A DNA stretch of 64,000 bases from Bdellovibrionales bacterium (lineage in GTDB: Bacteria; Bdellovibrionota; Bdellovibrionia; Bdellovibrionales; UBA1609), in assembly GCA_965261545.1 (NCBI GenBank), contig CBDHDF010000011.1, positions 907,585 through 971,584 of the forward strand. Direction: 5' to 3'. Below, one piece after another: positions 30,001 through 39,000 of the stretch. The position numbers are program-made. Position 1 is the stretch's first letter. Each line of letters begins with the position of its first letter.

Positions 30001-33000
30001 CCTCATCATCAATAATTTCTGACCAATGCGTTATTGGCAGTTGAGTGGTAATAACGGTGGACCTATCGGAACGAAACTTTAAAATATCGCAGAAGTCTGT
30101 GGATTCACTTTGGGAGAACTTCCTTAATCCAAAGTCATCAAAAATTAACACTTGGGGGCGGCCCAGACGACGCAAGTAGTTCAAATACCTTCCTGAGTGC
30201 CTTTCCAGGGCCAAGGTTTCTAGAAATATGTTGATGTCTATAAACAGTGTGGAGATTCTGGATTGACAACACTGGTGTCCCAGGCTCTGGGCCAAGAAGG
30301 TTTTACCCACCCCCGTTGGCCCTTCGACAATGATAGACCTTTGCTCCTTAACCCATGATAAAGTTTGAAGCCTATCCACCTCTCTTTTACTAATAGACCT
30401 TTTGGCATGGTGGTCAAATGCCTCACCTCTGACCTTGTGAGGCAGCTTTGAGGTCTTGAGAAGTCTTTGGCTGAATTGGATTTTCCGAGCCTCCACTTCT
30501 GCAAATAACAGCTCGTTCAATAGATCCAATGCTTGAGTCTTGTGGCTTGTGTTATCCAGCGCCACTTCAAGGCTGTCTAACATTCCATAGAGCTTCAACT
30601 CATGCATGTGGTTTTTGATTTGTACTTCATCCATCTGGCACCTCCTTGGGGCTTTGGTTATTTGGATTTTCGTTATGTCGCAAATAAGGGTTGCCTTGTT
30701 TACGATCTATTTTCTCGTTCACCTTTTTTATTTTTTGCCCTTTATAGAAATGGAGTTGTTGCTGAAAATATCTAACCCTCCTTTTCTCCCACTGCTTGCA
30801 GTCCTCAAGGGCTTTGATAATGAGAGGAAGGGACTTTTCCTTGCCCTCTTTCTGGATTTCTTTGTGACAGGAGCTTACAAAGCCCATAGCTCTTCTGAGA
30901 TTTTCAATGGTCCCACCCTGAAAAAGCTCCTCAATGAAGTTTTCAAGCTCTTTACAAATCATACTTGCTTGAATAAGAATGTTCTGGGGAGTGGCCTCCT
31001 TGTAGGCGCGACTGGGCTCCGGGAGGTGTTCGTTTTTGGTGATGTACTCTCCGAGTTTACCTTTGGTCCTCTTGTGGCGAGCGAGGAGCTGTTTTTGAAA
31101 GTAAATCTCCACACTCTCCACTCCAATTTTTACATCTACATACTCCCCTCGGTGCTGAAACGGAGCCGAGTAGAAGTTGGATTCAACGCTCACATGACAG
31201 TCTTGGTGGAGTTTTTTCTTCTCCCAACGTCCCCACCGGTAGGGAAAAGAAGGCAAGGGTTTTAAAGTTTTTACCTCTCGTTGAAATTTTTCATTGCGAG
31301 AGACCTTAAATCTTGTGTGAGGGCGAGCATTTATCTTCTCGCACACCTCCCTTAAAGCCTTATTAATTTGATCCAGACTGGTGAAGGTCTCTCGTCTGTA
31401 CATAAACCTGAGGGCCCTTGTAACGAGCTTCACGGCATTCTCAGTAAGGCTTTTATCCTGGGGACGACGAACTCGAGCGGGAACAGCCACCGTGTCATAG
31501 TGTTCCAAAAGCTCTTGGTAGGATTTATTCAACTCTGGATCATACAAATGGGGTGTGTTCACTCCAGTCTTTAAATTATCAGGAACAACCACTCTCGGAA
31601 CCCCACCGTAATATTCAAACATCAGAACGTGAGCGTGAAGAAAATCTTCACTAGATTCGCTCAAAGAGCCATAAGCAAAAATACGCTGAGAGAAACATAG
31701 ATTTGAGCAAAATATATGGGCCTTATGAATATTAAGGTCTTCATCGATCCACTCTGGCTGAAATCCTGCGTAATCAACCTCAACTTGGTGGCCTGGCTGA
31801 AAATCACGCAAGGTAATAATCCTTTTGCCAGCTTTTGGAAATTGCTTATGAAACTCCCTCGTAAACTGGGGGTAGCTAATGACCTTCAGAAATTTTTCCT
31901 CCCAAACGTCACTTAAACAATGCCTATCCTCAATCTCCTTCTCAATAATCTTCCAATCTATACCGTAAGACCAAGGGGGAATTTCTCTTTGGGTCTTCCA
32001 ATCCTTGGGGTCTGTTAAAAGACCACGTCTTATCTTTCTAAGAGTCTTGGTGCAGCATTTCATGCGGCGACTGATTTCTCGGTCGGGAATATTTGCCTTT
32101 ATTAATGATTTTATTTTTGTGTAACGCTCATGATCCATCTTTGTTCTCATTTCGACCTCCTTGGTTAAAGATTGGAGGTCTTTATAGAACATCAATGACG
32201 CTATGCTAAGGGGAATCAGTCATGCCAATCAGTGCGGGCAATGCCATGGTTCGCCGGGCGAACTGAGATAAGATAGGGGGTTAGAGTCCCCCGAGAGGAA
32301 GGTCAACCGACCACTTCTCTCCCCAAGCCGTGCGCTGTCGGCCGTGAGGCCGAAGCGATGTATCGGTAGGGGTGTGTGTGGGCCAAATAATTGAGCGTCG
32401 AAAATGCCGAACTCTGGAGTGCGGAGGCTGTCATGGTAGCCGAACGCAACATACCCACCAGCGCTATGGTGAGTTGGTGGGTGACTCCACGGCGTCGTAG
32501 AAACTGGCACATACATGAATCTTATCCCGGGACCTCGGGAGGTCTTTATTTAACCCCGTCATGTGCGACGGGCGACATGGGAAAGGAGGTAACCGTAACC
32601 CATGAACGAAATAAAGAAATCGGATCCACTCATAGTAGCGATGAAGAGGACGAACAAAGGGCCTACAAGCCCAGCGGAGTCCTTGGAGCGAAGGGGTGGA
32701 ACTGAAGGGAACTCAATCCGTCAAAGCATCTGCCGAACACAGAGTTGGGAAAAGGTGTCACAGGCGACGGAGCGAGTCCGTATAGCAGCAAAGAGAAAGG
32801 ATGGTAAGCTCACTTGCTTGCTTCACCATGTATCTGTGGAAGCCCTCCACTTGGCTTACCTCTATTTGAATAGGGGAGCCAGTGCGGGAGTGGACCATTT
32901 AACATGGAAGGAGTATGGCGAGAACCTCGTGCAAAACCTGTTCGATTTACATCGTCGGGTCCACACGGGTGCTTACAAAGGGCAACCTGTCTTGCGGGTA

Positions 33001-36000: not shown

Positions 36001-39000
36001 GACGACGCTCACAGCGTGGACGGAGATTCTCGTGGAAGAGGTTGGATAGAATGATTCGTCTATTCTGGCCTCGTATATCCATACGCCACCCGTGGCCAAC
36101 AGATAGGTTCGCTATGCGGTACCACCTGAAGTAGGAGCCGGATGCTTTAACGAGCACGTCCGGATCTGTGCGGGGGGTGCGTGGCAACACGCATTCCTAC
36201 CGTAACCAATTTTACAAGTAATAGCATAACTCTCTACGATAGGCTTTATTTATCTACAGAGATTATTAAGGCCCATGCTCAAGCCAGTAACTTCTTTATT
36301 GCGCGTTGTAAGCGAGGCTCTACTTTTATCCCCATTGTAAATTTATTTAATGGCCCAGGTTGGTATTCACGAATGGTTATTGAGGGGGTGGTCATTCATC
36401 TCTATAAGTATAAAAACCCAAAGACTGGGGAGTTCTCTGTTTTGGCCACTAATCTTCCGCATGGCTCCTTGGACAAGAAGGATATGGTTGCTCTTTACTC
36501 TCGTCGTTGGGAAATAGAAACGACATTTCGTGATTTTACATCGACAATGAAAATGGAGCAGTGGCACTCAACAAGCCTTAATGGAATATTGCAAGAGCTG
36601 TATTCTTATTTTTGGCTCTTCAATTATACAAAGATTCAAATGAGCATAAATGAGGATGAAGACAGTGTGAATCAGTTGGTAAAAAATGACTACAAAAAAC
36701 CTAACTTTAAACTGATTCTTGATTTCATAATGGATAGCATCCCTCTTTTTGTTGCGGGGCTCTATCAGAAATTTAGGAAGCAGATAAAGTTGCTGATGAA
36801 GATTTCAATGGAGAAGAGGAGGCACTTCAAAAGAAGCTATGAAAGGTCTATCAAAAGGGCTGGGAGTTCTTTTAAAAGAAATAGCTTAACGCAGAGGCAG
36901 AGGGGTGTGGTGGCTTAAGGAAACGGCATTGAGCCATGGCCCCAGAGCTTCTCACTTTTACAGCCGGGATTTTGGCACTTACATGGCCTCTTCCAATTGT
37001 AATTCTTACCTTCTTTTACAAGGTCATCCGTTGATACAAAAGTAGCTAAAATCATAACACCTCCTGATGCAGAGTATTAAACTCATGGGGAGGTTATGAC
37101 AAGACTTAGTCAAGGGAATGTAATAATTCTTTAGGGATGGTCAAAGAAAAATAAAAAATAAAGGCGAATTCTAGTCAGAATAAAGTATCGTATAACACCC
37201 CTCTGTGCAGGAAGCTGTATAGCCAAGTTCATCACAAGCAATAAGATCAAAACGGTCTAATTTCTTAAAAAGAGCATTCAATGAGAGTTCTTTCTTGCTT
37301 TCACGCATTGTTTCAATAAGTTCATGAGTGGTGACCCATAAACATCGATAGCCTTGTTCACAGAGTGAACGAACTAGGGACATGGCCAAATGACTTTTCC
37401 CCATTCCAAAGCTTCCGTAAAACACAACATTACAGGCTTTTCTGACCCACTCTCCCTCTGCCATCCAATTAATTTGCTGAGCTGTCACTCCCGTTCTTTT
37501 CTGGAAGTTATAAGTTTGGAGTGATTTAAGTTGAGGAAGCTTGGCCCCCTTAAGCAATCTTTTCACTCTCTGGGAATGCTTGTCAGCAAGCTCATTTTGA
37601 ACGAGTATACCTAAATACTGTTCATACGTCTTTTTTGTTTTTTCGGCAACTCTAGCCGTTGCAACATATTCATCCGCCATCGCTGGAAGTCGGAGTTTTT
37701 TAAGAGAACCTATAAGTTCTTCGTGATTCATTAAGAACCTCCTATGTTTGGAACAAGACTGTCATATTGAGACAATCTAGGTTGAAGTGGTTTTTGTTGG
37801 TCATTCAAATTAATTTTGGTGGGATTGCCTAAGAGCAAATCTTTTATGGATTTAAAGTCGAAAATCTCACGACTTTCTAATTGAAGCTCCATGGCTGTAG
37901 ATAAGTCCTGCCAACTCACATGCTGAATCAAGTTGATAACTCTTAAATATTCATGCTCGGCACGGCTTGAATCTTGTTGCTTGAGGTATTGATAAAAATT
38001 TTCAAACACATTTGTTGGAAAAAGAATGGATCGGTGAGCCCATCTTACCATGGCTTGCGGCTTACGAACTAAAGAAGGAAGGATATGTTCAAGAAGAAGA
38101 CTATGCTCCCCATCAGGTTTTCTTTGATGGCGAGCGACAATTTCTTGCTTCCCTCCTGCACGATAGATCGTGACATGATAGGGACCCTGTACGGTTTTAC
38201 AGGGAGATTGGATCACCTCATCAGGTATGGAATATGTGGTTTTACCTATTCTCAAAGTCCCATAACCATTACTTTGACAAATATTCACCTTACAGAGAAT
38301 ATCTTCATCTCGTGGAGGCAAAGGCTTAAGAACTTTGGCCTCCTCCTCAAAGCGAGATTTGGTGGAGTCACTCTGATGCTGATCCATATAAGACTCTAAA
38401 AACTGATTCAAATGATCCCAGTCTTTAAAAACAATTCCTTTGTTTCTAACAATATTTTTTATCCGAGAACTGAAGGTTCGAATATCACGCTCCACATCTC
38501 CCTTGTCAGAGCCCTTCCCTGCGCGGCAGGGAAGAACCTTAAATCCATAGTATTGGATGGCTCGATCAAAAGATTGGGTGTAAATTCGCTGATTTCCTTT
38601 AAGAACTTTCTTCACACAGGGAGATAAATTATCAATACGGATGTTCGCACTCATCCCACCTATCTTTTCAAAAAAAGCATGCACCCCATCGATGAAACAC
38701 TCATAGACAAGAAAGGGGTAGGCACGAACCCAACAGGTGCCACTACAAGGCAATGTTCCAAAATGGAGATGAACGGAACACCATCGGCAAATGGTAAAGC
38801 AACCTTCTCCTTAAAATCAAACTGAGCCTGTTCTCCAGGATCATATCTTTGGCTGAAAAAACGCTCCTTGGGGCGAGAACCAAGAATCTCACAAACTCTT
38901 CTCTGAACCGTTCTCTCACTCCCACGATAACCCTCCTCAACTAATAGCTCATATATTTCACGGGCGGTGTTACTTGGGTTCAACTTCAAAAAGTACTTCA

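What the first reader, a model, noticed from the sequence alone, without database searches (positions are those of the whole stretch)
32226..36216. Group II intron that homes into IS21 terminal transposase-binding repeats
Seen: both 1910-nt introns sit at the same register, after ...aatgccatg and before caa..., in the 23-bp end repeats of IS21-C. One is only 10 bp from the IS terminus. The loop catggt (32432-32437, in stem ggct/agcc) is complementary to the exon end gccatg. Introns are antisense to and upstream of istA, leaving istA/istB intact, and the whole unit is flanked by a clean 6-bp TSD. Known: group II introns often colonise mobile elements (e.g. attC-targeting IIC introns). Inference: this intron treats the IS end array as a multi-site landing pad and may ride the IS. 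I am not aware of a described intron specialised for IS21 end repeats.
Basis: partly seen in the sequence, partly recalled or inferred. Interest (0 to 1): 0.78.

Follow-up and report, generated by a model that had tools for sequence, protein, structure and literature searches.

The report
Group II intron targeting IS21 end repeats
Two identical copies of a mobile self-splicing intron have inserted at the same position in the repeated end sequences of a jumping gene of the IS21 family, a real but fairly ordinary case of one mobile element targeting another, because a similar habit is already described for a rhizobial intron.

Summary
An IS21-family element (29752-36216, 6-bp duplication AGTAAT) carries two 100% identical 1910-nt group II introns (32249-34158, 34297-36206). 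Both sit after ...GGCAATGCCATG and before CAA, in a run of seven 23-bp repeats at the end next to istA. One lies 10 bp from the IS tip. Covariation across about 55 related introns shows that CAUGGU (32432-37) is EBS1. It also locates EBS2 (UGCC, 32405-08) and EBS3 (G32497). All seven repeats fit these three sites, and five are empty.

The repeat run belongs to the IS, not the intron: intron-free relatives carry 4, 5 and 6 repeats with the same CCATG|CAA junction. A second intron (IEP 70% identical) sits after the same CCCATG repeat motif in a distant IS21 relative (IstA 44% identical).

Other close relatives, and 80 more distant ones, lie in unrelated sequence, so the habit belongs to single lineages, not the class.

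"Riding the IS" is not supported. Published IS21 biochemistry needs a contiguous end with two repeats, which intron 2 splits. The idea is not new either: RmInt2 homes into the inverted repeats of ISRm17. I file this as a new member of a known kind.

The parts
29752..36216 (-). IS21-family element with its two introns (6465 bp; 2645 bp without them)
   Evidence: Ends TGTACAATTG and CAATTTTACA. IstA has rve and Mu-transpos_C_2; IstB has IstB_IS21.
29746..29751 (.). Target-site duplication AGTAAT, copy on the low-coordinate side
   Evidence: Identical to 36217-36222.
36217..36222 (.). Target-site duplication AGTAAT, copy on the high-coordinate side
   Evidence: Removing the IS and one copy restores a 308-aa ORF across the junction.
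29752..29805 (.). End far from istA: 10-bp tip plus two inverted copies of the repeat. These copies lack the GCCATG target.
   Evidence: Read from the sequence. Inverted repeat I6. No match to the target motif at this end.
29882..30634 (-). istB (250 aa)
   Evidence: PF01695 IstB_IS21, E = 3.9e-55, profile positions 3-233 of 238.
30627..32195 (-). istA (522 aa from TTG; 507 aa from the ATG at 32150)
   Evidence: rve and Mu-transpos_C_2. Relatives listed.
32226..32248 (+). Repeat 1 of the 23-bp array; 5' exon of intron 1 (IBS2 GGCA, IBS1 GCCATG)
32249..34158 (+). Group II intron copy 1 (1910 nt)
   Evidence: RF02005 155.8 bits; RF00029 37.6 bits; starts GUUCG and ends AAC.
32405..32408 (+). EBS2 (UGCC), pairs with exon positions -12 to -9 (GGCA)
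   Evidence: Lies in an unpaired internal loop of the Rfam consensus. Across related introns, 10 of 53 pair perfectly at this offset against 1.3 expected.
32432..32437 (+). EBS1 (CAUGGU), pairs with exon positions -6 to -1 (GCCAUG)
   Evidence: Hairpin loop. 29 of 55 related introns show a perfect 6-nt complement at this offset.
32497..32497 (+). EBS3 (G), pairs with the first base of the 3' exon (C)
   Evidence: Bulged base after GUC in the basal D1 stem. 27 of 45 pairs by offset and 12 of 14 by motif; the best of 2000 permutations gave 11.
32602..34086 (+). Intron-encoded protein (494 aa), reverse transcriptase with a below-threshold maturase-domain match, no endonuclease domain found
   Evidence: RVT_1 1.8e-34; GIIM 2.7e-4 (21.3 bits, below the Pfam cut-off of 23); no other Pfam match.
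34085..34158 (+). Domains 5 and 6 of intron 1
   Evidence: RF00029 37.6 bits, E = 2.7e-5, gathering score 40.
34159..34296 (+). Repeats 2-7 of the array. Repeats 2-6 are empty target sites; repeat 7 is the 5' exon of intron 2.
   Evidence: TRF period 23, 6.0 copies, 93% matches. Motif matches.
34297..36206 (+). Group II intron copy 2 (1910 nt), identical to copy 1; IEP at 34650-36134
   Evidence: 0 differences in 1910 nt. RF02005 155.8 bits.
36207..36216 (+). 10-bp IS tip CAATTTTACA, cut off from the repeats by intron 2
   Evidence: Intron-free relatives have the tips CAATTCTACA and CAATTCTTCA directly after the last repeat.

Best explanation
An active-looking group II intron has retrohomed twice, independently and recently, into the tandem 23-bp direct repeats at the istA-proximal end of an IS21-family element. 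By analogy with the L1/L2 repeats of studied IS21 members, these repeats are the likely IstA-binding sites.

**The intron.** Its protein has a reverse-transcriptase domain, a weak maturase-domain match and no endonuclease domain. Its exon recognition is of the IIB type.

**Target recognition.** The intron RNA reads the target by base pairing:
- EBS2 (UGCC) with exon positions -12 to -9 (GGCA);
- EBS1 (CAUGGU) with positions -6 to -1 (GCCAUG);
- EBS3 (G) with position +1 (C).

The whole recognised stretch fits inside one 23-bp repeat, so each of the seven repeats is a complete homing site. Two are filled and five are empty.

**Where the array comes from.** The array is a native feature of this IS21 subgroup and varies in copy number.

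**Inferred, not shown.**
- Having no endonuclease, the intron probably inserts into transiently single-stranded DNA and is primed at replication forks, as shown for RmInt1.
- The insertion 10 bp from the tip probably disables that IS end. If so, the intron is a parasite that neutralises its host IS copy, not a passenger.
For: **Intron identity and integrity**
- RNA and protein matches.
- Two identical copies.

**Exon-binding sites, placed by covariation over related introns**
- EBS1: 29 of 55.
- EBS2: 10 of 53 against 1.3 expected, on a consistent antiparallel diagonal.
- EBS3: 27 of 45 and 12 of 14.
- The unrelated truncated intron at 48638 (- strand) pairs its own exon end UUUUGA with UCAAGA in the same loop.

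**Target sites**
- Seven matching sites, found only in the array.

**Two separate insertion events**
- The 5' exons differ (repeat 1 against repeat 7) and so do the 3' exons (repeat 2 against the tip).
- An unequal crossover would need homology downstream of intron 2. Only CAA is available there.

**The array is native to the IS**
- Intron-free relatives L088, L089 and L093 carry 6, 5 and 4 repeats ending CCATG|CAA, followed by a 10-bp tip.

**A second lineage at the same repeat motif**
- L004 has an intron with 70% IEP identity next to an IS21 relative with 44% IstA identity, after ...GGTGGTTCAATCCCATG.
- That is the repeat type seen in L093.
- The L004 EBS2 differs from the window's by C to A, and its IBS2 differs by G to U at the pairing position.

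**Requirement for an intact end**
- IstA needs a contiguous end with two complete direct repeats (PMC10122671).
Against: - **No functional data.** Splicing, mobility and IstA binding to these repeats are all untested.
- **No promoter found.** A simple sigma-70 scan found none upstream of intron 1.
- **Host genome out of reach.** I could not retrieve it, so occupancy of other copies of this IS is unknown.
- **Weak EBS2 helix.** It is only 4 bp, and its covariation signal is modest.
- **No exclusive clade.** In a quick NJ tree the two IS21-associated IEPs do not form an exclusive pair. Each groups, on short branches, with a relative that lies elsewhere.
- **The L004 copy is imperfect.** Its EBS1 has one A-C mismatch with its exon, its IS is decayed, and its tip and duplication could not be identified.
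Confidence: 0.8

Rival explanations
1. The intron is a long-term passenger. It entered an ancestral IS21 once, and the loaded IS kept transposing and diverging, carrying the intron along.
For: - Two diverged introns sit after the same repeat motif in two diverged IS21 relatives.
- The window IS has intact istA and istB and a clean duplication.
Against: - Intron 2 splits the tip from the repeats, and IstA needs a contiguous end with two repeats (PMC10122671).
- The two copies in one IS are 100% identical, which points to recent insertion in place.
- Intron-free relatives of both repeat types exist.
- The loaded IS in L004 is decayed: istA is split and istB is shortened.
- A duplication says nothing about what the IS carried when it inserted.
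Confidence: 0.1
2. The second intron copy arose by duplication, unequal recombination or assembly error, not by a second retrohoming event.
For: - The copies are identical and only 138 bp apart, within a repeat array.
- Such layouts are hard to assemble.
- Some metagenomic contigs show odd head-to-tail intron junctions (L005, L016, L029).
Against: - The flanks of the two copies differ on both sides.
- A crossover that gives two introns needs homology 3' of intron 2, where only CAA matches.
- Assemblers usually collapse such repeats; they do not expand them.
- The window carries many other resolved repeats, for example four copies of a 454-aa transposase gene, which suggests a long-read assembly.
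Confidence: 0.07
3. The insertions are chance ectopic retrotransposition events into sequence that happens to resemble the intron's true home site elsewhere. IS21 is not the natural target.
For: - Close relatives sit in unrelated sequence (L003, L006/L007, L090).
- The class as a whole has very varied sites.
Against: - Two hits at the same register.
- All three pairings fit.
- The related L004 intron is at the same repeat motif.
- The motif is absent from the rest of the window.
Confidence: 0.05

Closest known systems
RmInt2 of Sinorhizobium meliloti, which homes into the inverted repeats of ISRm17 (PMC4615759; PMC5894124)
   Same: - An endonuclease-less bacterial group II intron whose natural target lies in the terminal repeats of an insertion sequence.
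- Several target sites per IS.
- A 4-bp EBS2/IBS2 pairing is enough.
   Different: - RmInt2 is a class D intron, 72% identical in sequence to RmInt1. The window intron matches a different Rfam D1 model, and its closest annotated relatives are Klebsiella and Rhizobium plasmid introns at about 50% IEP identity. I did not compare it directly with RmInt2.
- RmInt2 uses both inverted repeats, giving two sites on opposite strands. Here only the istA-proximal end is a target, with up to seven tandem sites on one strand.
- The host IS is ISRm17, not this IS21-family element.
RmInt1 in ISRm2011-2 (IS630 family) and E.c.I4 in IS3-family transposase genes (PMC5894124; PMC3522654)
   Same: - Group II introns that use multicopy IS elements as home sites.
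- Insertion is reported to block spread of the host IS (RmInt1).
   Different: Those targets lie inside the transposase coding region, in the sense orientation, so splicing could restore the mRNA. Here the target is non-coding end DNA, antisense to istA, so splicing cannot repair the IS.
attC-targeting and terminator-targeting group IIC introns (for example S.ma.I2)
   Same: They target a repeated structural site of another mobile system.
   Different: - IIC introns recognise a hairpin plus a short IBS1/IBS3 and lack EBS2.
- This intron shows EBS2 covariation and a coordination-loop EBS3.
- Its D5 aligns over the full RF00029 model, and its target has no terminator-like hairpin.
Canonical IS21 and IS5376 ends (L1/L2, R1/R2 direct repeats; PMC10122671)
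   Same: - TG...CA tips.
- Direct repeats next to the tip.
- An istA-istB operon.
- A short target duplication.
   Different: This subgroup has 4-7 perfectly tandem 23-bp repeats at the istA-proximal end, with variable copy number. The usual number is two or three.

Membership tests
Group II intron (mobile, ORF-containing) | Conserved D1-D4 RNA structure | tested here: met
   RF02005 155.8 bits against a gathering score of 49, full model 1-225.
Group II intron (mobile, ORF-containing) | Domain 5 and domain 6 with a bulged A near the 3' end | tested here: inconclusive
   RF00029 37.6 bits, E = 2.7e-5, just under the gathering score of 40. The full model 1-77 aligned, and an A lies 8 nt from the 3' end.
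Group II intron (mobile, ORF-containing) | ORF in D4 with reverse transcriptase and maturase (X) domains | tested here: inconclusive
   RVT_1 1.8e-34 (119.7 bits, cut-off 29.6) is met. GIIM scores 21.3 bits, below the Pfam cut-off of 23 (E = 2.7e-4). YADD is present in the sequence.
Group II intron (mobile, ORF-containing) | 5' GUGYG and 3' AY boundaries | tested here: inconclusive
   The 5' end is GUUCG, with U at position 3. Relatives have GUAUG, GUACG, GUUCG or GUGCG. The 3' end is ...GUAAC.
Group II intron (mobile, ORF-containing) | EBS1-IBS1 pairing with the end of the 5' exon | tested here: met
   CAUGGU pairs with GCCAUG. The same loop covaries with the exon in 29 of 55 relatives.
IIB-type exon recognition | EBS2 present, and EBS3 in the D1 coordination loop pairing with position +1 | tested here: met
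   EBS2 enrichment of 10 of 53 against 1.3 expected. EBS3 pairs in 27 of 45 and 12 of 14.
Group IIC (terminator or attC targeting) | No EBS2; insertion just after a stem-loop | tested here: not met
   An EBS2 signal is present. The terminator scan of 31900-32700 lists no stem-loop ending just upstream of the intron 1 insertion site at 32248/32249; the nearest listed sites lie inside the intron.
Endonuclease-less IEP lineage (as RmInt1) | No HNH/En domain after the X domain | tested here: met
   Only RVT_1 and a below-threshold GIIM match were found. The GIIM match ends at residue 462 of 494.
Named bacterial IEP class (A-F, CL, ML) | Placement in a tree with reference IEPs of each class | not tested
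   No reference class sequences were at hand. The closest annotated relatives are plasmid ltrA genes of Skermanella, Methylocystis, Rhizobium and Klebsiella at 50-52% identity.
IS21 family | istA (DDE transposase) followed by istB (AAA+ helper) | tested here: met
   rve and Mu-transpos_C_2; IstB_IS21 at 3.9e-55.
IS21 family | TG...CA ends with multiple direct repeats, and a short target duplication | tested here: met
   TGTACAATTG and CAATTTTACA; two repeats at one end and seven at the other; 6-bp AGTAAT.
IS21 family | The repeats are bound by IstA | not testable with these tools
   Inferred from IS5376 biochemistry and structure (PMC10122671).
IS-end-homing group II introns (RmInt2 type) | Repeated, register-exact insertion in IS terminal repeats, with matching IBS | tested here: met
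   Two insertions here and one in L004.
IS-end-homing group II introns (RmInt2 type) | Demonstrated retrohoming into the cloned target | not testable with these tools
   Needs a donor/recipient plasmid assay.

The most novel reading that the evidence does not exclude
A small intron clade is a dedicated hyperparasite of one IS21 subgroup. Its exon-binding sites track the sequence of the IstA-binding repeats. The variable tandem array gives it many equivalent homing sites per IS. Each insertion uncouples the IS tip from its transposase-binding sites and from any junction promoter, so the intron acts as a natural silencer of that IS.
Probability: 0.3. Interest if true: 0.55.

Novelty: new member of a known kind. 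Interest (0 to 1): 0.4.

Why it matters
The case adds the IS21 family, and tandem transposase-binding repeats in particular, to the list of IS sites that group II introns use as safe havens.
- One 23-bp repeat holds the whole recognised target, so the array gives a natural series of one to seven equivalent homing sites on one strand. That is convenient for testing target dosage, strand bias and interference between neighbouring insertions.
- If the insertion disables the IS end, it is a clear example of one selfish element restraining another.
- The array of 4-7 repeats, variable in number, is itself an unusual IS21 end and worth noting for IS annotation.

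Tried and rejected
**Searches that gave nothing useful**
- *Host genome.* I tried to retrieve it to count other copies. Exact look-ups of the window IEP, P0001, P0122 and the 95%-identical IstA P0139 all returned nothing.
- *genome contigs.* The single scan, run with the IEP alone, found only distant RTs at 33-35% identity and was wasted.
- *viral contigs.* An exact search for the exon-intron junction found nothing.
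- *Promoter.* The sigma-70 scan upstream of intron 1 found none.
- *Replication direction.* GC skew over the window is too noisy to infer it, so I could not test a lagging-strand bias.

**Inconclusive attempts**
- *L004 IS ends.* I tried to define the tips and duplication of the L004 IS. Only the 13-bp core ATTGAACCACCCC is shared between its ends, so the exact tip is unresolved.
- *EBS2.* A search with 6-mers gave no signal. 4-mers did.
- *Intron class.* Papers on Kl.pn.I5 and class E did not let me assign a named class.

**Ideas rejected**
- *IIC-type targeting.* Rejected: an EBS2 signal and a coordination-loop EBS3 are present, and there is no hairpin target.
- *The array as a by-product of the intron.* Rejected: intron-free relatives carry it.

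Full report
**1. What is in the window**

An IS21-family element occupies 29752-36216.
- Its ends are TGTACAATTG and CAATTTTACA. It is flanked by a perfect 6-bp duplication, AGTAAT, at 29746-51 and 36217-22.
- Deleting the element and one AGTAAT in silico restores a 308-aa reading frame across the junction in an IS4-like (DDE_Tnp_1) transposase gene. The IS therefore inserted cleanly into another IS.
- On the minus strand it carries intact istA (30627-32195; rve and Mu-transpos_C_2) and istB (29882-30634; IstB_IS21, 3.9e-55).
- Without its two inserts the element is 2645 bp.

**2. The two inserts are group II introns**

- Both are 1910 nt (32249-34158 and 34297-36206) and identical at every position.
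- Each matches RF02005 (group-II-D1D4-6) over the full model at 155.8 bits, against a gathering score of 49.
- The last 74 nt align to the whole D5-D6 model RF00029 at 37.6 bits. That is just below its gathering score of 40, with E = 2.7e-5.
- The 494-aa ORF has RVT_1 (1.8e-34), a GIIM match below the Pfam cut-off (21.3 bits against 23) and a YADD motif. No endonuclease domain was found.
- The introns are about 50% G+C in a window that is about 40%.

**3. The insertion sites**

With the introns removed, the istA-proximal end reads as seven head-to-tail 23-bp repeats (CAACTGGTGCGGGCAATGCCATG and variants), followed by the 10-bp tip.
- Intron 1 follows repeat 1. Intron 2 follows repeat 7, so it lies 10 bp from the IS terminus.
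- Both junctions read GGCAATGCCATG|intron|CAA.
- The other IS end has the tip plus two inverted copies of the repeat. These read ...ATACGCG and ...ATGGGTG in place of ...ATGCCATG, so they are not targets.
- The target motif occurs seven times in 64 kb, all in this array, against 0.2 expected.

**4. Exon-binding sites**

A metagenome scan gave 80 introns of the same class with IEP identity of 48-61%. I located their ends with iterated nhmmer profiles.
- *EBS1.* In 29 of 55 introns, the six bases at the position equivalent to 32432-37 are a perfect complement (G-U allowed) of that intron's own last six exon bases. This position lies 10-11 nt before a conserved GAAnnCAAYA motif. No other offset exceeds 3. 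In the Rfam consensus this is a hairpin loop. The unrelated truncated intron at 48638 (- strand) follows the same rule: UCAAGA pairs with UUUUGA.
- *EBS2.* The same approach places EBS2 at UGCC (32405-08), in an unpaired internal loop. It pairs with GGCA at exon positions -12 to -9. The count is 10 of 53 against 1.3 expected, with the neighbouring diagonal cell also enriched.
- *EBS3.* This is the bulged G at 32497, which pairs with the C at +1. The count is 27 of 45 by offset and 12 of 14 by motif; the best of 2000 permutations gave 11.

This is IIB-type recognition, not IIC. All seven repeats satisfy the three pairings, with one G-U pair in repeats 4-5 and two in repeat 6. Five sites are therefore empty but usable.

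**5. Two events or one?**

The two copies have different 5' exons (repeat 1, CAATCAGTGCGGG..., against repeat 7, CAATCGGTGAGGG...). They also have different 3' exons (repeat 2 against the tip).
- An unequal crossover yielding two introns would need homology downstream of intron 2, where only CAA matches.
- Two retrohoming events are the simplest reading, and the 100% identity makes them recent.
- I cannot rule out an assembly error without reads.

**6. The array belongs to the IS**

IstA relatives were found.
- Two copies of an IS with 57%-identical IstA carry six and five tandem repeats, CAACTGGTGTCGGCAAAGC(C/T)ATG, followed by the tip CAATTCTACA. Neither has an intron (L088, L089).
- An IS with 48%-identical IstA carries four repeats, CAA(C/T)(T/C)GGTGGTTTCAAT(A/C)CCATG, plus the tip CAATTCTTCA (L093).

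Tandem arrays of 4-7 repeats with a conserved CCATG|CAA junction are thus a native, copy-number-variable feature of this IS21 subgroup. The repeats ending GCCATG in L088 and L089 (three of six and three of five) would fit the window intron's EBS1, EBS2 and EBS3.

**7. A second intron at the same repeat motif**

- The IEP closest to the window's, outside the host genome, is P0003 at 70% identity. It lies upstream of and antisense to istA in a decayed IS21 relative (L004; IstA 44% and IstB 52% identical to the window's).
- Its 5' exon ends GGTGGTTCAATCCCATG, which is the L093-type repeat.
- Its EBS1 loop is CAUGAG, with one A-C mismatch to CCCAUG.
- Its EBS2 is UGAC, where the window has UGCC. 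Its exon has U where the window has G at the pairing position.
- Its IS tip and duplication could not be defined.

**8. Limits of the specialisation**

- Other close relatives are elsewhere:
  - P0002 lies antisense in an ABC-ATPase gene (L003).
  - P0004 lies at CCCATTG|AACAAGG (L006, L007).
  - P0005 lies at CATATTTCCG| (L090).
- None of the 80 more distant introns is next to an IS21, and their flanks are all different.
- In a quick NJ tree, the window IEP and P0003 fall in one small clade with P0004, P0005 and P0006 but are not an exclusive pair.

The habit therefore belongs to individual lineages, as expected for elements that retarget by changing a few EBS bases.

**9. Does the intron ride the IS?**

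- For IS5376, IstA needs a contiguous pre-cleaved end containing two complete direct repeats, and a random sequence ending in CA is inactive (PMC10122671).
- Intron 2 puts 1.9 kb between the 10-bp tip and the nearest repeat. Together the introns push anything at the tip about 4 kb away from istA.
- I infer that this end is disabled, and that the introns entered after the IS had landed. This is inference, not a test.
- The introns are antisense to istA, so splicing cannot help the IS.
- No sigma-70-like promoter was found upstream of intron 1. How the intron is transcribed remains open.

**10. Comparison with what is known**

- Group II introns that live in IS elements are well known: RmInt1 in ISRm2011-2, and E.c.I4 in IS3-family genes (PMC5894124, PMC3522654).
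- More to the point, RmInt2 inserts in the inverted repeats of ISRm17. This gives two sites per IS, and four EBS2/IBS2 pairs suffice (PMC4615759).
- A full-text search for "group II intron" together with "IS21" gave 17 papers. None of the 16 listed titles and abstracts concerns this association, and I did not read them in full.
- The differences here are the IS family, the use of only one end, and the tandem array offering up to seven same-strand sites.
- I did not assign a named IEP class. The nearest annotated relatives are plasmid ltrA genes at 50-52% identity.

**11. Verdict**

The "passenger" idea is unlikely. The finding is a new member of a known kind, of moderate interest.

Noticed in passing
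window 48220-48638 (- strand): A 5' fragment of a different group II intron of the same Rfam type (RF02005, 125.8 bits). It starts GUGCG at 48638. No IEP, D5 or D6 was found downstream. Its exon end UUUUGA pairs with its EBS1 loop UCAAGA. It is not in an IS21.
   Followed up: partly
window 10796-13771: A second, distantly related IS21-family element: istA 10937-12460 (31% identical to the first) and istB 12542-13270. It has its own 23-24-bp tandem end repeats (3.4 copies at 10796-10891 and 2 copies at 13724-13771). These lack the intron target.
   Followed up: partly
L088:350-560, L089:5750-5950, L093:4790-4900: This IS21 subgroup has 4-7 perfectly tandem 23-bp repeats at the istA-proximal end. 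Copy number differs even between two copies in one metagenome (6 against 5). Canonical IS21 ends have two or three repeats.
   Followed up: partly
window 5224-6588, 19339-20703, 21493-22857, 57208-58572: Four copies of a 454-aa ISNCY-family transposase gene. The window also holds IS1634, IS481 and IS4-like genes, so it is extremely rich in IS elements.
   Followed up: no
window 40772-62702: Conjugative-element genes: TraC/VirB4-like ATPase (58843-61440), TraB (61785-62702), a MobP-type relaxase (50670-52553) and two tyrosine recombinases (40772-42013, 48777-49931). The region looks like an integrative conjugative element or a plasmid-derived island.
   Followed up: no
L005:1678/1679, L016:1661-1663, L029:2536-2538: In three metagenomic contigs, the 3' end of an intron abuts the 5' end of another intron copy, with no exon or with a 2-3 nt overlap. 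This could be a head-to-tail tandem, a circle-like junction or an assembly effect.
   Followed up: no
L014:1161, L071:1775: An intron inserted inside domain 1 of another group II intron of the same class (a twintron-like nesting). The 5' flank reads as D1 sequence.
   Followed up: no
L003:8039-8114: A 38-nt direct duplication of the D6/3' end of the intron. Its IEP (P0002, 667 aa) also contains an internal duplication.
   Followed up: no
L006 and L007 (whole contigs): Two contigs with the same intron share an identical 3' flank of at least 39 nt, but their 5' flanks differ beyond about 3 nt (the shared TTG). The EBS3 position (A) does not pair with +1 (A). Unexplained.
   Followed up: no
proteins P0001, P0121, P0123 (host genome, not retrievable): IEP variants 98-100% identical to the window IEP from residue 122-141 onward, but with different N-termini. 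They imply further, probably 5'-truncated or interrupted, copies of this intron in the host genome or genomes.
   Followed up: partly
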